A stretch of 11,110 nt of DNA, taken from a virus. Taxonomy: Duplodnaviria; Heunggongvirae; Uroviricota; Caudoviricetes. A program made the translations under genes and the position numbers. Shown here piece by piece: positions 3,961 to 11,110 of the stretch (the first letter of the stretch is position 1; each line of letters opens with the position of its first letter). Below the pieces are notes generated by a model. The model worked only from the letters and a program-made list of their open reading frames with translations. It was not told where the DNA came from and made no database searches. The stretch lies in the IMG/VR virus record IMGVR_UViG_3300014970_000061; one strand, 5' to 3'.

Positions 3961-4232
3961 GTATTCGTATTGAAATTGGCGAACGTTATGTCGTTACCAG
4001 TGACAGCTTTCAGTTTATTCTCCACGAGAAAAAGAGAGCGGAAAGCGGTAAAAACGCCGGTCAGGAATGGCTGGCGGTGGTTGGTTATTACCCGAAATTA
4101 AGCCAGCTCGTTTCCGGCCTGATGCATCACGATATTCTGACCGGAAGCGCAAAGTCTTTTGCTGATTTAAACGCGCAGGTTGAGCAACTCAGCAAGCGTT
4201 GTTCAGAGGCTTTTGGCTCATATGGCCGTTAA
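3957..4232 (+). CDS. Small early-operon protein (P2 orf83-like), 91 aa
   Basis: ATG at 3957, translationally coupled to the upstream gene. 3' end overlaps the A start by 11 nt. Confidence 0.6.
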   Translation: MSIRIEIGERYVVTSDSFQFILHEKKRAESGKNAGQEWLAVVGYYPKLSQLVSGLMHHDILTGSAKSFADLNAQVEQLSKRCSEAFGSYGR

Positions 4233-6507
4233 AGCCTCCGGGCGTTTTGTCCCTCCGTCAGCATTTGCCGCAGGCACCGGTAAGACGTTTACCGGTGCTT
4301 ATGCGTGGAACGCGCCACGCGAGGCTGTCGGGCGCGAAAGACCCCTTACACGTGACGAGATGCGTCAGGTGCAAGGTGTTTTATCCACGATTAACCGCCT
4401 GCCTTACTTTTTGCGCTCGCTGTTTACTTCACGCTATGACTACATCCGGCGCAATAAAAGCCTGGTGCACGGGTTTTATTTCCTCACATCCACTTTTCAG
4501 CGTCGTTTATGGCCGCGCATTGAGCGTGTGAATCAGCGCCATGAAATGAACACCGACGCGTCGTTGCTGTTTCTGGCAGAGCGCGACCAGTATGCGCGCC
4601 TGCCGGGGATGAATGACAAGGAGCTGAAAAAGTTTGCCGCCCGAATCTCATCGCAGCTTTTCATGATGTATGAGGAACTCTGCGATGCCTGGGTGGATGC
4701 GCATGGCGAAAAAGAATCGCTGTTTACGGATGAGGCGCAGGCTCACCTGTATGGTCATGTTGCTGGCGCTGCACGTGCTTTCAATATTTCCCCGCTTTAC
4801 TGGAGAAAATACCGTAAAGGACAGATGACCACGAGGCAGGCATATTCTGCCATTGCCCGTCTGTTTAACGATGAGTGGTGGACTCATCAGCTTAAAGGCC
4901 AGCGTATGCGCTGGCATGAAGCGTTACTGATAGCTGTCGGGGAGGTTAATAAAGACCGCTCACCTTATGCCAGTAAACACGCCATTCGTGATGTGCGTGC
5001 ACGCCGCCAGGCAAATCTGGAATTTCTTAAATCGTGTGACCTTGAAAACAGGGAAACCGGCGAGCGCATCGACCTTATCAGTAAGGTGATGGGCAGTATT
5101 TCTAATCCTGAAATTCGCCGGATGGAGCTGATGAACACCATTGCCGGTATTGAGCGTTACGCTGCCGCAGAGGGTGATGTGGGGATGTTTATCACGCTGA
5201 CCGCGCCGTCAAAGTATCACCCGACACGTCAGGTCGGAAAAGGCGAAAGTAAAACCGTCCAGCTAAATCACGGCTGGAACGATGAGGCATTTAATCCAAA
5301 GGATGCGCAGCGTTATCTCTGCCGTATCTGGAGCCTGATGCGCACGGCATTCAAGGATAATGATTTACAGGTCTACGGTTTGCGTGTCGTCGAGCCACAC
5401 CACGACGGAACGCCGCACTGGCATATGATGCTTTTTTGTAATCCACGCCAGCGTAACCAGATTATCGAAATCATGCGTCGCTATGCGCTCAAAGAGGATG
5501 GTGACGAAAGAGGAGCCGCGCGAAACCGTTTTCAGGCAAAGCACCTTAACCGGGGCGGTGCTGCGGGATATATCGCGAAATACATTTCAAAAAATATCGA
5601 CGGCTATGCACTGGATGGTCAGCTCGATAACGATACCGGTAAGCCGCTTAAAGATACTGCCGCGGCTGTTACCGCATGGGCGTCAACGTGGCGCATCCCG
5701 CAATTTAAAACGGTTGGACTGCCGACAATGGGGGCTTACCGTGAACTACGCAAATTGCCTCGCGGCGTCAGTATTGCTGATGAGTTTGACGAACGCGTCG
5801 AGGCTGCTCGCGCTGCCGCAGACAGTGGTGATTTTGCGTTGTATATCAGCGCGCAGGGTGGGGCAAATGTCCCGCGCGATTGTCAGACTGTCAGGGTTGC
5901 CCGTAGCCCGTCGGATGACGTTAACGAGTACGAGGAAGAAGTCGAGAGAGTGGTCGGCATTTACGCGCCGCATCTCGGCGCGCGTCATATTCATATCACC
6001 AGAACGACGGACTGGCGCATTGTGCCGAAAGTTCCGGTCGTTGAGCCTTTGACTTTAAAAAGCGGCATCGCCGCGCCTCGGAGTCCTGTCAATAACTGTG
6101 GAAAGCTCACCGGCAGTGATACTTCGTTACCGGCTCCCACACCTTATGAACATGCCGCAGCCGTGCTTAATCTGGTTGATGACGGTGTTATCGAATGGAA
6201 TGAGCCAGAGGTCGTGAGGGCGCTCAGAGGTGCATTAAAACACGAACTGAGAACACCAAATCGTCAGCAGAGAAACGGAAGCCCGTTAAAACCACATGAA
6301 ATAGCGCCATCGGCCAGACTGACCCGGTCGGAACGAACGCAAATTACCCGTATCCGCGTTGACCTTGCTCAGAACGGTATCAGGCCGCAGCGATGGGAGC
6401 TTGAGGCGCTGGCGCGTGGCGCGACCGTAAATTATGACGGGAAAAAATTCACGTATCCGGTCGCTGATGAGTGGCCGGGATTCTCAACAGTAATGGAGTG
6501 GACATAA
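4222..6507 (+). CDS. A: Replication initiator A, HUH-superfamily rolling-circle endonuclease (761 aa)
   Basis: Internal ATG at 4222 gives 761 aa, matching P2 A. HUH metal-binding motif in PHWHMMLF. Paired catalytic tyrosines in YIAKYISK, as in phiX174 gpA (YVAKYVNK). In P2 the origin lies within A, but I could not pinpoint it here. Confidence 0.9.
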   Translation: MAVKASGRFVPPSAFAAGTGKTFTGAYAWNAPREAVGRERPLTRDEMRQVQGVLSTINRLPYFLRSLFTSRYDYIRRNKSLVHGFYFLTSTFQRRLWPRIERVNQRHEMNTDASLLFLAERDQYARLPGMNDKELKKFAARISSQLFMMYEELCDAWVDAHGEKESLFTDEAQAHLYGHVAGAARAFNISPLYWRKYRKGQMTTRQAYSAIARLFNDEWWTHQLKGQRMRWHEALLIAVGEVNKDRSPYASKHAIRDVRARRQANLEFLKSCDLENRETGERIDLISKVMGSISNPEIRRMELMNTIAGIERYAAAEGDVGMFITLTAPSKYHPTRQVGKGESKTVQLNHGWNDEAFNPKDAQRYLCRIWSLMRTAFKDNDLQVYGLRVVEPHHDGTPHWHMMLFCNPRQRNQIIEIMRRYALKEDGDERGAARNRFQAKHLNRGGAAGYIAKYISKNIDGYALDGQLDNDTGKPLKDTAAAVTAWASTWRIPQFKTVGLPTMGAYRELRKLPRGVSIADEFDERVEAARAAADSGDFALYISAQGGANVPRDCQTVRVARSPSDDVNEYEEEVERVVGIYAPHLGARHIHITRTTDWRIVPKVPVVEPLTLKSGIAAPRSPVNNCGKLTGSDTSLPAPTPYEHAAAVLNLVDDGVIEWNEPEVVRALRGALKHELRTPNRQQRNGSPLKPHEIAPSARLTRSERTQITRIRVDLAQNGIRPQRWELEALARGATVNYDGKKFTYPVADEWPGFSTVMEWT

Positions 6508-6959
6508 TGGCAAAAATTCACGAGGTAAAGCTGCACGCAAAATATTTCGACCTTGTGCTGGAAGGAAAGAAACGTGCAGAGTTCCGGAAAAATGACCGTA
6601 ATTATGAGCGCGGGGACACGTTGATTTTGTATGAATGGGTGCAGGGTGTGTATACGGGGCGAAATGTTGAAGCCCGGATAACAGATGTTACTGACCTGTC
6701 AGACTGGCTGGAAGATTATGTCTTGCTAAGTATTGAGCTGCTTAATACAGGCGCATATGAGATTGTGAACTGGAAAGAACTTAGTGAGCGTGGCCTGGTA
6801 TTCAGAATTAATCATGAAATTATGCATCAGCTCGGCCTTGCTGTTATGTATGAACCAGAGACGGGGATGTCTGGCGGGGCAATGGTTGCCACGGATGGAG
6901 CATGGAACTATTCAGATGAACAGATGGAGCGTGCACAGCAAAACGGGTGGCTTGGATAA
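6507..6959 (+). CDS. DUF3850/ASCH-like (PUA-fold) protein (P2 orf91-like position), 150 aa
   Basis: ATG at 6507 overlapping the A stop (TAATG). N-terminal KIHEVKLHAKYFDLVLEGKKRAEFRKNDRNYERGDTLILYEW resembles the DUF3850/ASCH motif (RKNDR). Domain call is from memory. Confidence 0.65.
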   Translation: MAKIHEVKLHAKYFDLVLEGKKRAEFRKNDRNYERGDTLILYEWVQGVYTGRNVEARITDVTDLSDWLEDYVLLSIELLNTGAYEIVNWKELSERGLVFRINHEIMHQLGLAVMYEPETGMSGGAMVATDGAWNYSDEQMERAQQNGWLG

Positions 6960-7165
6960 TGCACAGAATACCAGGCGAGATACCGCACCATAAAACTAAA
7001 AATATCAAGCTGATGGCTATTGTTCAGCGTTTACAGCGGATTATGGTCAACGAAAATCTGACGCCCGATGAGCTGGTCGGGTGTGCCGAAATAGTCCGGG
7101 ATAATTACGGGCGGTTTAACCATATCGGTCAGTCCAGAGTTGCGCCACCACAACGCAGACGATAG
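6959..7165 (+). CDS. Small hypothetical protein, 68 aa, coupled to the upstream gene
   Basis: ATG at 6959 overlapping the upstream stop (TAATG). Basic C-terminus (PPQRRR). No recognisable domain. Last ORF before the AT-rich cargo. Confidence 0.4.
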   Translation: MHRIPGEIPHHKTKNIKLMAIVQRLQRIMVNENLTPDELVGCAEIVRDNYGRFNHIGQSRVAPPQRRR

Positions 7166-7339
7166 AGAACGCCGCCAGTCGTGAAACTTGTTTTCAGGGC
7201 TGGCGGGGTTGAATAACGAGTGTCGCGAGGCGTTAGTTTGAGCTTACAATTAAACCTATTGAAAATTAATGAGAAGTCAATTTTATCTTTTTCTCGTTAA
7301 AGATGGCCACAACTACTAAAACGTGAGAATATCAAGACT

Positions 7340-7407
7340 TGGCAAAATCTAGCTTTTCCCAACGGGGTGTTTCGCTATAATACGCGGTCGGTTTTTAGGA
7401 GGGGTCA
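7340..7407 (+). promoter_or_regulatory. Candidate sigma70 promoter and RBS for the methyltransferase gene
   Basis: Perfect -10 hexamer TATAAT at 7376-7381 with a weak -35 (cttttc region). AGGAGG at 7397-7402, 5 nt before the ATG at 7408. Confidence 0.35.
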
Positions 7408-8346
7408 ATGCCAACTGTAGTTTCACTTTTTTCTGGATGTGGTGGTTCTGATGCGGGAGTTTTGAACGCAGGTTTCAATGTGCTTATGGCAAATGATATT
7501 TTGCCTTACGCAAGGGACGTTTACTTAGAAAACCATCCTGAAACTGACTACATTTTGGGCGATATCTCAGGGCTCCAGTCGTTCCCTTCTGCTGAGTTGC
7601 TCATCGGATGCTATCCTTGCCAAGGATTTAGTCAAGGTGGGGCAAGGAAGGCAGATAGAAAGATTAATACACTATATTTAGAGTTTGCCCGTGCTTTGAG
7701 TAAAATTAAGCCAAAAGCATTCATTGTAGAGAATGTCTCTGGTATGGTAAGGCGTAACTTTGAGCATTTATTAAAGGATCAATTCAAAGTTTTCGAAGAA
7801 GCAGGTTATACAGTAAGCTCGCAAATTCTGAATGCGTCCCATTATGGGGTATCCCAAGATAGGAAGCGAATCTTTATCGTAGGAATACGAAAGGACTACG
7901 GTATTACATACAAATTTCCAAAACCAACACATGGTGATGGTTTGACACCATATTCCACAATTCGTGATGCTATTGGGCATATGCCTGTTTGGCCTGTTGG
8001 CGAGTTTTATGACGCCGATTTTCATTGGTATTATCTATCGCGAAACCGTAGGCAAGATTGGGATCAGATATCTAAAACAATTGTTGCAAATCCTAGACAT
8101 ATGCCTCTACATCCAATAAGTCCAACATTAGAAAAATTGGGACCTGATAAGTGGCAATTTACTTCGGATGCACCAGCTCGTAGGTTTAGCTATCGAGAGG
8201 CTGCTATTTTACAAGGTTTTGGGGATTTAATTTTCCCAGAAACTGAACGGGCTTCTATTAATATGAAATATACTGTGGTAGGTAATGCAGTACCGCCTCC
8301 ATTGTTTGAGGCGGTTGCTAGAAACCTTCCAGATTTATGGGATTAA
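7408..8346 (+). CDS. DNA (cytosine-5)-methyltransferase, 312 aa
   Basis: Canonical C5-MTase motifs in order: motif I LFSGCGG (AdoMet binding), motif IV GCYPCQGFSQGG (catalytic Cys in PCQ), motif VI ENV (FIVENVSGM), motif VIII QDRKR, C-terminal VVGNAVPPPLFEAV. Small size implies a short target-recognition domain. Confidence 0.92.
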   Translation: MPTVVSLFSGCGGSDAGVLNAGFNVLMANDILPYARDVYLENHPETDYILGDISGLQSFPSAELLIGCYPCQGFSQGGARKADRKINTLYLEFARALSKIKPKAFIVENVSGMVRRNFEHLLKDQFKVFEEAGYTVSSQILNASHYGVSQDRKRIFIVGIRKDYGITYKFPKPTHGDGLTPYSTIRDAIGHMPVWPVGEFYDADFHWYYLSRNRRQDWDQISKTIVANPRHMPLHPISPTLEKLGPDKWQFTSDAPARRFSYREAAILQGFGDLIFPETERASINMKYTVVGNAVPPPLFEAVARNLPDLWD

Positions 8347-9368
8347 GCAGCGATCGCGCTGGAAGGATCAAGGATGATATCTAGATAGCTAATATTTTGA
8401 CTGTGATCAATATTATCAGATGCTCTGGTTAAATTGATTAATCTTAGGCGATCAACAAAAATAGCATCGCCTAACTTATTTTTATGCGCCCACTCACCAT
8501 CTATCCATCGTAGATCTTGAGGTAAGAAATAATAAGTTGCCCATCGGTGAGCTACGGGGAATTTACTGTAGAGCATCGCAGGTGAGGCCTCAAGCTGCTT
8601 CGCTTCCCACTCTTCTTGAGAACAGCCACACTGAACAAAAGAAATAGGGATGGCATCTCGTTGATCTCCCATTGGATGCCAGGCAATTATGTCAAGGCCT
8701 CCGTCACCACTATTTCCTCGACTGAAATCTCGTTCTTTGAAGTTCGCTGTGCAACGGATATCGGAAGCAATACTCTTAAATTTATTATATAGAGTTCCAG
8801 TGTAAGGGGCCGCTTGACCACCAGAAGCCCAGCATGCTTTTATTATGCTACCGCTAGGCATTAGGCTTTCAAAAATAGGTAAACTAATTAGTTCAAAACT
8901 GCGCGTTATCTCTCTTCTGCTCATTATGTTGACATATTTTATGTTAGCACAGATTAGTAAAGCTAAATATAGTCTTTCTAAATGTTCCAGTGGCTTTTCT
9001 GATATATCACGTAACTCTACAGTATCGTTGTCTTCTGATAAAGTAAAAGGGTAACTATCCCCAAATAAATCAATGCGTTGTCGTATGAAGCCTATCGCAT
9101 AGCTCCACTTTCTGTCAGTATATGCTCGACTAACACTTCGTTTTGTTCTCTTGCGTACAGGCGTATCATTTTCATCATCAACATCATAAACGCCCTCTTC
9201 TTCTGCTTCATCTGTTTCAGCTAGTACTGCTTCGGGTTGAGCTTGCAGTGTGCTATATAGGTCTCCTCGACTGAATGACCTGTCGATATTAGTTAAGGCC
9301 AATATCTCAATATAATCAGCCCATAAATAAGGCTCATTAGAAGGCATTGAATCAAGATTTGTAATCAT
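8343..9368 (-). CDS. Uncharacterized protein with a possible Mrr-like PD-(D/E)xK nuclease signature, about 341 aa (start uncertain)
   Basis: Long minus-strand ORF whose stop overlaps the MTase stop (TTAA at 8343-8346). GDGGLDIIAW followed about 20 aa later by FVQCGCSQEEWEAK resembles the GDGGID ... (V/I)QxK core of Mrr-type nucleases, but with Gly where the Lys is expected. Acidic then basic linker (ETDEAEEEGVYDVDDENDTP / VRKRTKRSVSR). In-frame starts at 9452, 9380 and 9368; 9368 chosen because GGAGG lies 12 nt upstream and it sits 4 nt after the upstream stop. Confidence 0.7.
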   Translation of the reverse strand: MITNLDSMPSNEPYLWADYIEILALTNIDRSFSRGDLYSTLQAQPEAVLAETDEAEEEGVYDVDDENDTPVRKRTKRSVSRAYTDRKWSYAIGFIRQRIDLFGDSYPFTLSEDNDTVELRDISEKPLEHLERLYLALLICANIKYVNIMSRREITRSFELISLPIFESLMPSGSIIKACWASGGQAAPYTGTLYNKFKSIASDIRCTANFKERDFSRGNSGDGGLDIIAWHPMGDQRDAIPISFVQCGCSQEEWEAKQLEASPAMLYSKFPVAHRWATYYFLPQDLRWIDGEWAHKNKLGDAIFVDRLRLINLTRASDNIDHSQNISYLDIILDPSSAIAA

Positions 9369-9372
9369 AATC

Positions 9373-10446
9373 TCAATCATCCTCCCTTTTGCTTCTGATC
9401 TGATTTCTAATATTTTTTGACATCTCAAAAATTTCAGATGCAGCCTCTTCATGCTCTAATGTTAATTCTTTAGCTTTAAGTAGCATATCCCAAACTACTC
9501 TTAATTTAACACTAGCTGCGTTTAGTGCTTTATCTAATGCTTCTCTTTCTCCGCTGGTATATAGATATGCTTCATCCAAGTTTGAACTTTTCATGAGAAT
9601 TTCAATTGCTTCGGGTTTCTCAACCACTGCTGCAATATCTTTTATTCTTCGAGACTCACCGATGATGGTTCTACCTTGTTGGTCAGGCACAAAAAACCAA
9701 GAGAATAAACGCTTAAGGTTTTCTTCATTTAAATTTGGGTCTAAAAAATCCTTTTTATCCTGTAGACCTAACCAGTTTGTGATTTTTGAATATCCCAAAG
9801 CTGTGGTTATATATGAAAATTCCACGTCAGAAGCCTTCATGGGTAAATTAAAAAACTCATGGTCATGCGCGACTTCATATAAGTTCAGTGCAGTGAGAAG
9901 TGTTGCAACATAATGTGGTTTACTCCCAATCTCACGAGCCAGATTTTTTAATACTATCTCTTTAGGCTCATGTGAATAAAAAGTATCACATAACTCTTTA
10001 AGGTATTTGGCTTTAGATAATGAGTCCCATTCTTTGACCCCAGTTATATGACGATAACCGATATATCTCAGTACATCCTCTCGGTTTTCATAAATGATGC
10101 AGGGAAGCTTCTTAGGTTTATTGGTAGTATCATCAATGATTTCTTGCACACCTTTAAGTTTTCTTTTTGGAGGAAGCAGATCTCCATTGAGCAACTTTAC
10201 AGCAGCTAAGCGTCTGTTTCCCTCAACCACGATGTAGTTTCCATTGCTTTTTACTGCCAATAAAGGTTCTCCAGGAAAGTAACCTTGCTGACCGATTGAT
10301 AGCATTAGATCGTGGACACTTTCGTCATCTAACATTTCCTCAATGACTGTTGCAGCGTTACTGGCATCATTGAGACGAAAGAAACGTGGGTTTTTAGGGT
10401 CAAAATCAAGCTTATTTGTCTCAATTTCTACGATTTTGTTATCCAT
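9373..10446 (-). CDS. ParB/Srx-superfamily (ParB N-terminal domain) protein, 357 aa from the ATG at 10446
   Basis: N-terminus MDNKIVEIETNKLDFDPKNPRFF ... LMLSIGQQGYFPGEPLLAVKSNGNYIVVEGNRRLAAVKLL parallels the ParB N-terminal domain (I..L..P.NPR box and GxRRxxA arginine patch). GAGG 5 nt upstream of the ATG at 10446. Longer ORF-track start at 10578 lacks an RBS. C-terminal 250 aa has no motif I recognise. Confidence 0.8.
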   Translation of the reverse strand: MDNKIVEIETNKLDFDPKNPRFFRLNDASNAATVIEEMLDDESVHDLMLSIGQQGYFPGEPLLAVKSNGNYIVVEGNRRLAAVKLLNGDLLPPKRKLKGVQEIIDDTTNKPKKLPCIIYENREDVLRYIGYRHITGVKEWDSLSKAKYLKELCDTFYSHEPKEIVLKNLAREIGSKPHYVATLLTALNLYEVAHDHEFFNLPMKASDVEFSYITTALGYSKITNWLGLQDKKDFLDPNLNEENLKRLFSWFFVPDQQGRTIIGESRRIKDIAAVVEKPEAIEILMKSSNLDEAYLYTSGEREALDKALNAASVKLRVVWDMLLKAKELTLEHEEAASEIFEMSKNIRNQIRSKREDD

Positions 10447-10673
10447 CTTAACCTCATGGGATGATGTAAATATCTTTTGGGGGATGCTTGATAAAACATC
10501 CATATTTGATCGTTTGCAGCGCATTTGATACATCGAAGTGTACAAAAATGCTGGGCATAACTCTGCATTAAAATGCATTCACATTCAAAGAACTATTTTC
10601 TCGTTGGACATTTAGCCCAAGAGAGTTTGGACGGCTTTTGGAATTGCATCAAAACCGACCCATGAAGCGGGCG

Positions 10674-10692
10674 GGCGAGGCGGGGAAAGCAC
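10674..10692. other. Phage cohesive-end site (cos), ggcgaggcggggaaagcac
   Basis: 19-nt sequence matches my recollection of the P2 cohesive end. GC-rich, and located between the last right-arm gene and the first late gene, as expected in a prophage. Confidence 0.65.
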
Positions 10693-10834
10693 TGCGCGCT
10701 GGCGGTGGTGCTGATTTTATTTTTTCAGCGTCTGAGCGCGTCGTGATGGCGTTTAGTCGGCCTGCCGGGGCGTTGGTGTGTCTGCGGGGTGTTTTGTACA
10801 GTGGCGAACGTGTGAGGGCGTGATGACGGGGTGT

Positions 10835-10856
10835 AAAAAAGCCGCCCGCAGGCGGC
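10835..10856 (-). terminator. Rho-independent terminator for the minus-strand late gene
   Basis: On the minus strand: GCCGCC-tgcg-GGCGGC hairpin (plus 10841-10856) followed by TTTTTT (complement of the A6 run at 10835-10840), a few nt downstream of the stop at 10862. Confidence 0.55.
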
Positions 10857-10861
10857 GATGT

Positions 10862-11110
10862 TCAGCCGTTGTCAGTGTCCAGTGAGTAGTTTTTAAATCG
10901 GATGACCTCCTGACCGAGCCAGCCGTTTATCTCGCGGATCCTGTCCTGTAACGGGATAAGCTCATTGCGGACAAAGACCTTTGCTACTTTCTCAATATCG
11001 CCCAGCGACCCGACGTTCTCCGGTTTGCCGCCCATCTGCGTATTACCGTGAAGGAGATCGGTGAGTAACATCGATGGAGATCGGTTCGTGTCACTTTCAC
11101 AGAACCGTTT
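10862..11110 (-). CDS. 3' end of a late gene, probably capsid portal protein Q (partial; 5' end beyond the window)
   Basis: Minus-strand ORF ending at 10862, about 170 bp from cos, presumably open to the window edge. In P2 the first gene after cos is Q on the opposite strand. Identity is by synteny only. Confidence 0.5.
   Translation of the reverse strand, partial: KRFCESDTNRSPSMLLTDLLHGNTQMGGKPENVGSLGDIEKVAKVFVRNELIPLQDRIREINGWLGQEVIRFKNYSLDTDNG

What the first reader, a model, noticed from the sequence alone, without database searches (positions are those of the whole stretch)
7408..8346. Compact C5-cytosine methyltransferase sharing a 4-nt stop overlap with the convergent operon
All core C5-MTase motifs are present in a 312-aa protein, so the target-recognition domain must be short. 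Its stop (TAA, 8344-8346) overlaps the stop of the convergent nuclease-like gene (8343-8345) in the tetranucleotide TTAA, which argues the genes travel as one unit. The MTase could be the self-protecting modification arm of the cassette, an orphan anti-restriction MTase, or the source of the modification a methyl-dependent nuclease reads.
Basis: partly seen in the sequence, partly recalled or inferred. Interest (0 to 1): 0.6.

Follow-up and report, generated by a model that had tools for sequence, protein, structure and literature searches.

The report
ParB–nuclease–cytosine methylase defence cassette
The small cytosine methylase is the constant partner of a ParB-like protein and a restriction-nuclease-like protein in a three-gene cassette carried by P2-type prophages and other mobile DNA, and it most likely marks the host's own DNA so the other two proteins attack only foreign DNA; nobody has yet tested this.

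Summary
The ORF at 7408-8346 is a complete 312-aa C5-cytosine methyltransferase. Its TAA stop overlaps the stop of the convergent gene in TTAA (8343-8346).

The window is an E. coli P2-like prophage. The cassette is phage Wphi's mth/orf96/orf98, in the P2 tin/old defence hotspot next to cos.

The convergent operon encodes two proteins. One is a ParB/Srx + ParB-type HTH protein (9373-10446). The other is a winged-helix + restriction-endonuclease-like protein (8343-9380) that matches no Pfam family.

All 52 dereplicated related loci with enough sequence carry the three genes together, across Enterobacterales, Beta- and Gammaproteobacteria and Pseudomonas phages. Their flanks are unrelated. In 46 loci the methylase is convergent and adjacent. 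In 27 of those 46 the 4-nt stop overlap is kept, with changing sequence.

Several results favour a restriction-modification-like module with the methylase as the self-protecting arm:
- the methylase is far more conserved than its partners
- vsr sits beside it in five loci
- natural knock-outs hit only the nuclease gene

The nearest validated relative is PD-lambda-5, but several of its defining features are not met here. The function is untested, the target site is unknown (GGCC is only a lead), and the nuclease fold call is moderate.

Verdict: a new variant of a known kind, of moderate interest.

The parts
7168..7210 (+). Imperfect hairpin directly after the stop of the P2 backbone ORF orf92. 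It may insulate the cassette from the phage early operon.
   Evidence: Inverted repeat with 19-nt arms, 84% complementary, 5-nt loop. Function is inferred.
7376..7402 (+). Likely own expression signals of the methylase: a perfect -10 hexamer TATAAT (7376-7381) and the Shine-Dalgarno AGGAGG (7397-7402).
   Evidence: Read directly from the sequence. The consensus scan did not call a promoter here because the -35 is weak.
7408..8346 (+). C5-cytosine DNA methyltransferase, 312 aa (Wphi Mth; WP_001143634.1). It is the proposed self-marking arm.
   Evidence: Pfam PF00145, 209.7 bits. TIGR00675 dcm, 185.6 bits. All motifs present. Full-length homologue of M.HaeIII. Identical in 104 of 5426 E. coli genomes.
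8343..8346 (.). TTAA: the 4-nt overlap of the two convergent stop codons. No intergenic terminator is possible, so each transcript must run antisense into the other gene.
   Evidence: Conserved in 27 of 46 dereplicated adjacent loci.
8343..9380 (-). Winged-helix + PD-(D/E)xK-like protein, 345 aa (Wphi orf96; WP_000570053.1). It is the proposed restriction nuclease. The start may be 9380 or 9368, and the longest ORF reaches 9452.
9373..9380 (-). ATGATTGA: the ParB stop overlaps the RefSeq start of the nuclease gene by 8 nt, which implies translational coupling.
   Evidence: RefSeq coordinates. ParB stop to first aligned nuclease residue: 3 nt or less apart or overlapping in 22 of the 24 genome loci.
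9373..10446 (-). ParB/Srx N-domain + ParB/KorB-type HTH + C-terminal helical domain protein, 357 aa (Wphi orf98; WP_000368931.1). The longest ORF reaches 10578.
10561..10590 (.). Palindromic element (core TGCATTTTAATGCA) about 115-145 nt upstream of the ParB start. It is a candidate operator or promoter region for the minus-strand operon.
   Evidence: (17-nt overlapping arms). Function is inferred.
10673..10691 (+). P2-type cos sequence GGCGAGGCGGGGAAAGCAC. It marks the cassette as sitting in the cos-proximal P2 hotspot.
   Evidence: Sequence. By offset from the Wphi cassette coordinates, the end of the Wphi record (32684) maps to about window 10673. The identity of the 19-mer with P2 cos is from my own knowledge.

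Best explanation
The methylase is the modification arm of a conserved, mobile, three-gene restriction-modification-like defence module.

Shown:
- The three genes form one unit in every related locus examined.
- The ParB-like and nuclease-like genes are translationally coupled. In 46 of 52 dereplicated loci they converge on the methylase gene, usually with overlapping stops.
- The module sits in a known anti-phage hotspot.

Inferred:
- The methylase is made from its own promoter in the lysogen and methylates a short site in resident DNA. A GGCC-like site is the lead.
- The ParB/Srx-HTH protein and the winged-helix/PD-(D/E)xK protein act together as the restriction arm on DNA that lacks the mark.
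- The ParB-like protein is either a nucleotide-dependent DNA-loading or licensing subunit (as McrB is to McrC), or a delay regulator of the nuclease.
- With no terminator between the convergent genes, transcription of each arm runs antisense into the other. This could hold back the nuclease operon until methylation is established.
For: Location. The cassette lies between gpA/orf91 and portal Q, next to cos, which is the P2 tin/old hotspot. That hotspot is documented as a reservoir of defence systems (PMC9122126, PMC9519451).

Linkage.
- 24 of 24 genome loci found with the nuclease profile carry ParB, then the nuclease, then a C5 methylase. 20 are directly adjacent and convergent.
- 44 of 46 viral loci carry all three; the two exceptions (L065, partial methylase hit; L066, none) end at the contig edge right after the nuclease gene.
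- A Pseudomonas P2-family phage carries the trio at a different genome position.
- Only these three genes are shared across loci.

Conservation pattern. The methylase stays about 70% identical where ParB is 37-58% and the nuclease 29-45% identical. A second E. coli variant has a 98% identical methylase beside a 32% identical ParB and a 25% identical nuclease.

Methylase active on resident DNA. A vsr gene, whose Pfam family is a DNA mismatch endonuclease (its link to 5mC deamination repair is from my own knowledge), sits directly upstream of the methylase in 5 loci.

Loss pattern expected of a toxic restriction arm. Among the near-identical E. coli copies listed, the only disruptions are in the nuclease gene, with the methylase intact: an IS5 insertion at about codon 52, and Q101*. 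One MAG shows decayed ParB and nuclease genes with a full-length methylase match.

Nuclease fold and conserved acidic, Gln and Lys residues.

Precedent. PD-lambda-5 is a validated defence system made of a protein with the same ParB-N subfamily domain plus a methylase. Its authors describe it as a compacted RM+Abi system, and they cloned it in a host deleted for the region containing mrr.

Host compatibility. E. coli W, the natural host of Wphi, lacks mcrBC and mrr (PMC3032704).
Against: - No experiment bears on this cassette. Neither a defence phenotype, a methylated motif nor nuclease activity is known.
- The canonical (D/E)xK lysine is replaced (Q250-C251-G252). Catalysis would need the nearly invariant K261.
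- Only two or three independent natural knock-outs were seen, and I could not inspect all 104 genomes.
- E. coli W is described as 'restriction minus' from its genome. It is used as a cloning host (my own knowledge), which would be odd for a strong 4-bp restriction activity.
- The role of the ParB-like protein is pure inference. Its Box III differs from that of CTPase ParBs, by my manual alignment to ParB motifs recalled from memory against the sequences. A profile of the family finds no solved ParB by sequence.
Confidence: 0.6

Rival explanations
1. Ordinary two-component Type II R-M plus a controller. The nuclease-like protein alone is the sequence-specific restriction enzyme. The ParB-like protein is only a large regulator that delays or limits nuclease expression. 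It would play the part a C protein plays in R-M systems where a C-R operon converges on M; Esp1396I is the example I recall.
Against: At 357 aa it is several times the size I recall for a C protein. It is more conserved than the nuclease. It keeps the ParB/Srx nucleotide-binding signature (NPRF, GNRRxxA) invariant, and it shares that domain with the effector protein PD-lambda-5A. No HTH_3 or C-protein family hit was found.
Confidence: 0.15
2. The nuclease arm is modification-dependent and reads the mark made by the methylase. The trio would then work as an addiction or abortive-infection device rather than as classical restriction.
Against: Co-resident, own-promoter expression of a methylase and a nuclease that cuts its product would kill the host. 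Yet the trio is stable in 104 of 5426 E. coli genomes and in many chromosomal contexts. vsr next to the methylase implies long-term methylation of the resident genome. The MspJI similarity is confined to the catalytic fold.
Confidence: 0.12
3. The methylase is an orphan prophage enzyme that protects phage DNA from host restriction or acts epigenetically. The neighbouring ParB and nuclease genes are an independent cargo.
For: Phage-borne orphan methylases are common. Automated pipelines annotate it as a stand-alone 'DNA cytosine methyltransferase'. A survey of P2-like viruses lists dcm-type methylases as immune-evasion genes (PMC13100340).
Against: All 52 dereplicated loci, at nuclease identities down to about 30%, have the three genes together and in a fixed order in nearly all cases. 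These include non-phage islands with unrelated flanks. The conserved stop overlap argues the same way.
Confidence: 0.08

Closest known systems
PD-lambda-5 (Vassallo et al. 2022, E. coli ECOR7; PMC9519451)
   Same: It contains a protein whose N-terminal ~150 residues belong to the same ParB-N subfamily (PADLOC PD-Lambda-5_A E 3e-24). It is paired with a DNA methyltransferase. It was validated as broad anti-phage defence, its authors read it as a compacted 'RM+Abi', and it was cloned in a host deleted for the region containing mrr.
   Different: - PD-lambda-5 has two genes, not three.
- Its ParB protein carries a C-terminal region that the authors label HEPN, on weak HHpred hits. Here the C-terminus is an HTH plus a helical domain with no HEPN signal, and a separate REase-fold protein is present.
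- Its methylase is a D12/Dam-class N6-adenine enzyme, not a C5-cytosine enzyme.
Type II restriction-modification systems carried in P2/P4 hotspots (for example EcoO109I in P4-like satellites, and EcoT38I)
   Same: A C5 methylase lies next to a PD-(D/E)xK-fold protein on a mobile element at a hotspot. The EcoO109I R-M cassette in the P4 hotspot is listed in PMC9122126. EcoT38I is the top, though non-significant, Foldseek hit for the nuclease; its P2-prophage location is from my own knowledge. The M and R genes are convergent.
   Different: A third, strictly conserved ParB/Srx gene is translationally coupled to the nuclease. The nuclease belongs to no described REase family, and its ExK lysine is missing at the canonical position.
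Two-subunit NTP-dependent restriction modules (McrBC; LlaJI-type R-M with McrB-like and McrC-like subunits plus C5 methylases). From my own knowledge.
   Same: Works like: a nucleotide-binding DNA-reading subunit encoded just upstream of, and coupled to, a PD-(D/E)xK nuclease subunit. In LlaJI-type systems these are combined with cytosine methylases.
   Different: The putative NTP-binding subunit here has a ParB/Srx fold, not AAA+. No nucleotide dependence has been shown.
Druantia type II methylase DruM
   Same: The methylase gives its best PADLOC match to DruM2 models (E 1e-110).
   Different: No DruE, DruF or DruG genes are present in the window or in related loci. Only the methylase clade is shared.
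M.HaeIII / M.BspRI (GGCC) C5 methyltransferases
   Same: Full-length homology to M.HaeIII, including the TRD (E 1.6e-48). One phage record names the gene 'Modification methylase BspRI' by automated annotation. The Arg residues that I recall as M.HaeIII base contacts (R225, R227, R243) align with R212, R214 and R230.
   Different: Only 38% identical overall and 27% in the TRD. The target site is therefore unassigned.

Membership tests
C5-cytosine DNA methyltransferase (Pfam PF00145 / TIGR00675) | Profile match above the curated threshold over the whole catalytic domain | tested here: met
   PF00145: 209.7 bits against a cut-off of 22, residues 3-307. TIGR00675: 185.6 bits against 100.65.
C5-cytosine DNA methyltransferase (Pfam PF00145 / TIGR00675) | Conserved motifs I (FxGxG), IV (PCQ with the catalytic Cys), VI (ENV), VIII (QxRxR), IX and X (GNAVP) | tested here: met
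   Positions 8-13, 70-72, 108-110, 150-154, 263-271 and 292-296.
C5-cytosine DNA methyltransferase (Pfam PF00145 / TIGR00675) | Methyl transfer to cytosine C5 at a defined site | not testable with these tools
   Indirect support only: vsr next to the methylase in 5 related loci. The published E. coli methylomes I checked did not score 5mC.
Type II restriction-modification system | A methylase gene adjacent to a restriction endonuclease gene | tested here: inconclusive
Type II restriction-modification system | PD-(D/E)xK catalytic motif intact in the endonuclease | tested here: inconclusive
   D230 and Q250 are invariant and K261 nearly invariant across a 23-44% identity panel. The residue at the canonical K position is G252.
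Type II restriction-modification system | Two components suffice (R and M, optionally with a small C protein) | tested here: not met
   A 357-aa ParB/Srx-HTH gene is present and coupled to the nuclease gene in every locus.
Type II restriction-modification system | Methylation of the site blocks cleavage, and the methylase is needed for viability when R is active | not testable with these tools
   Suggestive only: natural disruptions hit the nuclease gene, never the methylase, in the genomes listed.
PD-lambda-5 | Protein A with the PD-lambda-5-type ParB N-domain | tested here: met
   25 PD-Lambda-5_A models match, best E 3e-24, covering profile positions 1-158 only.
PD-lambda-5 | Protein A carries the C-terminal half that its authors label HEPN | tested here: not met
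PD-lambda-5 | Protein B is a D12 (Dam-like) N6-adenine methylase; the system has two genes | tested here: not met
   Here the methylase is a C5 enzyme and there are three conserved genes. PD-lambda-5B matches MethyltransfD12.
Druantia type II | DruM together with DruF, DruG and the DruE helicase | tested here: not met
   Only the methylase matches. The window and related loci hold no such partners.
Type IV (modification-dependent) restriction, GmrSD or Mrr type | No cognate methylase; DUF262+DUF1524 or Mrr_cat domains | tested here: not met
ParB/Srx superfamily (CTPase-type ParB) | ParB/Srx fold with the Box I (PR) and Box II (GxRRxxA) motifs | tested here: met
ParB/Srx superfamily (CTPase-type ParB) | Box III (ENxxR) and CTP binding and hydrolysis | tested here: inconclusive
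   By my manual alignment to ParB motifs recalled from memory, the equivalent stretch is GYRHITG (invariant R132, H133), not ENxxR. Nucleotide binding cannot be tested here. A profile of the family finds no solved ParB by sequence.

The most novel reading that the evidence does not exclude
The trio could be a distinct class of restriction-modification system. In it, a ParB/Srx-family nucleotide switch, rather than a helicase-like or AAA+ motor, reads or patrols DNA. It licenses a winged-helix/PD-(D/E)xK nuclease to cut DNA that lacks a C5-methylcytosine mark. The nuclease superfamily has about 1,500 clusters at 50% identity and would then be a large, unnamed family of restriction enzymes. Swapping of ParB-nuclease pairs against a fixed methylase (98% against 25-32% identity within E. 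coli) would reflect an arms race with phage inhibitors.
Probability: 0.25. Interest if true: 0.8.

Novelty: new variant of a known kind. Interest (0 to 1): 0.55.

Why it matters
The cassette is in 104 of 5426 complete E. coli genomes, including the industrial strain W. A swapped variant is in 36 more. It also occurs in many other Proteobacteria and their phages.

In the annotations I saw, two of its three genes are called hypothetical or named only as a ParB N-terminal domain protein. PADLOC flags only the methylase (as DruM or Type II) and the ParB N-domain (as PD-Lambda-5_A or PDC-M38A), and no PADLOC model matches the nuclease.

If it is an active R-M-like barrier, four things follow:
- It adds an unrecognised restriction activity and a 5mC mark to these strains. 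This is relevant to transformation, phage therapy and methylome interpretation.
- It links PD-lambda-5 to a wider group of systems that pair a ParB-N protein with a methylase.
- It offers a tractable case for how a ParB/Srx domain is used in immunity.
- The conserved overlap of convergent stop codons gives a simple model for antisense or collision control of the toxic arm.

Tried and rejected
Family assignments that failed.
- PD-lambda-5 membership: only the ParB N-domain matches. The effector half, the methylase class and the gene number differ.
- Druantia II: only the methylase matches.
- HEPN in the ParB protein: no support.

Searches that found nothing.
- Sigma-70 promoter scan of 6900-10900: 8 sites against 9.8 expected, so not informative. 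No terminator between the convergent genes.
- Foldseek of the nuclease model against the PDB: nothing significant. The afdb50 library was unavailable.
- Profile of the ParB family against PDB sequences: no hit.
- Literature on PDC-M38, on Wphi orf96/orf98, and on ParB plus cytosine-methylase defence: nothing specific.
- The Menshen paper concerns DUF262 proteins with different partners.
- The Pectobacteriaceae Tn-seq paper reports essential methylases, but of other R-M systems.
- Methylome papers for ST101 and O145:H28 strains did not score 5mC.
- Odegrip 2006 (PMC1367236) is not held.

Leads that stayed inconclusive or were dropped.
- Rousset 2022 lists the locus in its P2-hotspot supplementary table (file 6) with ParB and the nuclease as 'hypothetical'. 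I found no sign that it was tested.
- One distant nuclease homologue on a 2.7-kb contig (L033) has a 141-aa unknown ORF, not a methylase, as its convergent neighbour before the contig ends. This is inconclusive.
- GGCC counts in the window are uninformative.
- I ran no further search on the methylase, because source names would not settle its specificity.
Full report
**1. What the window is.**
The ORF map and Pfam hits show a P2-type prophage. It has an integrase (643-1656, -), the replication protein gpA (4180-6507, +; Phage_GPA E 1e-123), an orf91-like DUF3850/ASCH gene (6471-6959) and the end of a portal gene (10862-11071, -).

The stretch 7166-10860 is 100% identical to many E. coli chromosomes. 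In strain SMS-3-5 it lies in a P2-like prophage inserted next to cpxP, between the 'replication endonuclease' gene and 'phage portal protein'. It is also 99.9% identical to phage Wphi of E. coli W, where the three genes are annotated mth ('DNA cytosine methylase'), orf96 and orf98.

The P2-type cos sequence sits at about 10673-10691, which is where the end of the Wphi record maps. The finding therefore lies in the cos-proximal tin/old hotspot of P2-like phages. Two studies identified that hotspot as a reservoir of anti-phage systems (PMC9122126 and PMC9519451).

**2. The observation.**
It is correct in every detail.
- The ORF at 7408-8346 encodes 312 aa behind an AGGAGG (7397-7402) and a perfect TATAAT (7376-7381).
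- It matches Pfam DNA_methylase at 209.7 bits over the whole profile.
- It carries motifs I, IV, VI, VIII, IX and X at the expected spacing.
- Positions 8343-8346 read TTAA and hold both stop codons.

The protein is small but not exceptional. It aligns end to end with the 324/331-residue M.HaeIII chains, including the target-recognition region (E 1.6e-48; 38% identity overall, 27% in the TRD).

**3. The two partner genes.**
RefSeq starts them at 10446 (357 aa) and 9380 (345 aa). The stop of the first then overlaps the start of the second in ATGATTGA.

*The 357-aa protein.*
- It has no Pfam hit above threshold in my scan. It matches TIGR00180 parB_part (E 4e-7) and 25 PADLOC PD-Lambda-5_A models, but only over their first ~158 positions. 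It also matches the candidate model PDC-M38A.
- The motifs FDxxNPRF and EGNRRL-A are invariant. By my manual alignment to ParB motifs recalled from memory, the ParB Box III position reads GYRHITG.
- I read it as a ParB/Srx N-domain, a ParB-type HTH, and a helical C-terminal domain.

*The 345-aa protein.*
- It has no Pfam, NCBIfam or PADLOC hit and falls in PHROG 3984, of unknown function.
- Foldseek against the PDB finds nothing significant; the best hit is EcoT38I at E 0.22. The fold call is therefore moderate.
- Across a panel at 23-44% identity, D22, E25, R102, D230, Q250, D310, R311 and R313 are invariant. G225, D226, G228, C251, C253, W258 and K261 are nearly so.
- The pattern GDGGxD...Q-C-G...K looks like an Mrr/MspJI-type D...QxK site with the lysine moved to the next helix. 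This reading rests on my own knowledge.

**4. Do the genes travel together?**
A scan of one genome per species with the nuclease profile gave 24 loci. They come from Enterobacterales, Beta- and Gammaproteobacteria and one Rhizobium MAG.
- In all 24, tblastn finds the ParB gene immediately upstream and a C5 methylase downstream on the opposite strand.
- In 20 the methylase is directly adjacent.
- In 4 a Type IIG R-M gene (PADLOC REase_MTase_IIG, E 1e-190) is wedged between the nuclease and a more distant (41% identical) C5 methylase plus vsr.

A scan of viral contigs with a broader profile gave 46 more loci.
- All with enough sequence carry the trio, down to about 29% nuclease identity.
- Two have the methylase on the same strand as the nuclease gene, so convergence is usual but not obligatory.
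- Pseudomonas phage vB_PaeM-D14A has the trio at a different place in its genome.

All-against-all comparison of flanking ORFs shows that only the three genes are shared. Only the enterobacterial loci are P2-like prophages.

After dereplication at 90% nuclease identity there are 52 loci. In 46 the methylase is convergent and adjacent. In 27 of these the stops overlap by exactly 4 nt, using TTAA, CTAA, CTAG or TTAG. In 38 the stops are at most 2 nt apart.

**5. Which role does the methylase play?**
Four lines favour the self-protecting arm of a restriction-like module.

(a) *Asymmetric conservation.* The methylase stays about 70% identical where ParB is 37-58% and the nuclease 29-45% identical. 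In 36 E. coli genomes (for example O145:H28 RM13514) the same hotspot holds a 98% identical methylase next to a ParB that is 32% identical and a nuclease that is 25% identical. A fixed mark with fast-evolving or swappable readers fits R-M logic and an arms race.

(b) *vsr.* A vsr gene lies directly upstream of the methylase in five loci. Its Pfam family is a DNA mismatch endonuclease. From my own knowledge, Vsr repairs T:G mismatches caused by 5mC deamination, which makes sense only if resident DNA is methylated long-term.

(c) *Natural knock-outs.* Among the near-identical E. coli copies listed, the only disruptions are in the nuclease gene, with the methylase protein unchanged. One is an IS5 insertion at about codon 52, seen in two strains at the same site. 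The other is a Q101* mutation. A Dechloromonas MAG shows only partial ParB and nuclease matches next to a full-length methylase match. These are few events and I could not inspect all 104 genomes.

(d) *Precedent and host.* PD-lambda-5 combines the same ParB-N subfamily with a methylase and defends broadly. It was cloned in a host deleted for the region containing mrr, and its authors call it a compacted RM+Abi system. E. coli W, the natural host of Wphi, lacks hsdMRS, mcrBC and mrr (PMC3032704). That would let it tolerate a foreign 5mC mark. The same paper mentions a putative 5mC restriction system elsewhere in W, which I did not resolve.

**6. Mechanism proposed, and what is inferred.**

*Shown:* the gene unit, the coupling, the hotspot location, the fold-level identities and the conservation pattern.

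*Inferred:*
- The methylase is expressed from its own promoter in the lysogen and marks a short site.
- ParB and the nuclease act together on unmarked DNA.
- ParB is either a nucleotide-dependent loader or licensing subunit, or a regulator.
- Because the stops overlap, no terminator can separate the arms (none was found). Each transcript runs antisense into the other gene, which may delay the toxic arm on entry into a new host.

*Target site.* It is unknown. GGCC is a lead from three observations:
- the full-length M.HaeIII homology
- an automated 'BspRI methylase' label in one phage record
- conservation of three arginines that I recall as M.HaeIII base contacts

The 27% TRD identity does not allow an assignment.

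**7. Rivals.**
- *Plain Type II R-M with ParB as a large controller.* This fits the gene order, the HTH and the KorB similarity. It does not fit the size, the conservation or the invariant ParB/Srx motifs.
- *Methyl-dependent nuclease reading the methylase's own mark.* This is suggested by the MspJI hit and by ParB-like domains in Type IV enzymes. It would be self-toxic given stable co-residence.
- *Orphan anti-restriction methylase.* This is contradicted by the strict linkage in non-phage contexts.

**8. Comparison with what is known, and novelty.**
The genes have been in GenBank since the Wphi record. The locus also appears in the P2-hotspot supplementary table of Rousset et al. (file 6), with ParB and the nuclease labelled 'hypothetical'. 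I found no test of it and no name for it.

- It is not PD-lambda-5: the effector half, the methylase class and the gene number all differ.
- It is not Druantia II: only the methylase clade is shared.
- It is not a standard Type II R-M: there is an obligatory third gene and an unclassified nuclease.
- It works most like an R-M system whose restriction arm has two subunits, as in McrBC or LlaJI-type systems, but with a ParB/Srx protein in place of the AAA+ subunit.

The nuclease superfamily is large: 1477 clusters at 50% identity with E of 1e-3 or better, and 424 with E of 1e-30 or better. I rate this a new variant of a known kind.

**9. Verdict.**
Confidence in the R-M-like reading is about 0.6. 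Confidence in any specific role for ParB is much lower. Interest is 0.55. The cassette is common, conserved, untested and mechanistically suggestive, but the most likely outcome is a variation on restriction-modification.

Noticed in passing
window 10673-10691: P2-type cos sequence GGCGAGGCGGGGAAAGCAC, between the ParB gene start and the portal gene. By offset, the end of the Wphi record maps to about window 10673.
   Followed up: partly
window 8343-9380 (-), protein residues about 47-86: The E. coli/Wphi nuclease carries a ~40-residue acidic, low-confidence insert (AETDEAEEEGVYDVDDENDT...). The ~305-aa relatives lack it. The purpose is unknown; it could be a DNA-mimic or autoinhibitory segment.
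   Followed up: no
L029 (E. coli O145:H28 RM13514, NZ_CP006027.1) 5001-8037: The same P2 hotspot holds a variant cassette. Its methylase is 98% identical, but its ParB is only 32% identical and its nuclease 25% identical. The variant is present in 36 of 5426 E. coli genomes and in the vB_EcoM-12474 phages.
   Followed up: yes
L020-L023 (Variovorax, Hydrogenophaga, Pelomonas, Rhizobium MAG), about 7915-12934: A 1048-aa Type IIG R-M enzyme gene lies between the nuclease gene and a more distant C5 methylase plus vsr. In L020 its stop also overlaps the nuclease stop by 4 nt.
   Followed up: partly
L004, L005, L012, L020 and one further locus, directly upstream of the methylase gene: A vsr (very-short-patch repair endonuclease) gene abuts the methylase gene in five loci. 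The E. coli cassette has none.
   Followed up: yes
L031 (Yersinia phage L-413C, AY251033.1) 207-1199: A 330-aa ParB-like ORF (34% identical to the window's ParB) sits alone in the same P2 hotspot, with no nuclease or methylase. It is either a remnant or a stand-alone function.
   Followed up: partly
L026, L027 (E. coli JXZ9A32M, FXCREC123) and L028 (M25631H): Natural inactivations of the nuclease gene with the methylase and ParB intact: an IS5 insertion after window position 9224, and a G9080A change giving Q101*. L026 also has a 262-bp duplication around a partial IS5, which may be an assembly artefact.
   Followed up: yes
window 7168-7210 and 10561-10590: A hairpin lies directly after orf92, before the methylase promoter region. 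A palindrome (TGCATTTTAATGCA core) lies upstream of the ParB gene. Both are candidate regulatory elements.
   Followed up: no
window 7408-10446: The cassette is 39.4% G+C against 45.4% for the whole window. This is consistent with horizontal acquisition.
   Followed up: partly
window 6471-6959: The P2 orf91 homologue combines DUF3850/ASCH with DUF7415. It belongs to the phage backbone and is not conserved with the trio in other loci.
   Followed up: partly
E. coli W genome (PMC3032704): The paper calls strain W 'restriction minus' and says its mobile elements carry nothing of note. [quoted passage not shown] That would conflict with an active prophage C5 methylase unless the specificities differ.
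   Followed up: no
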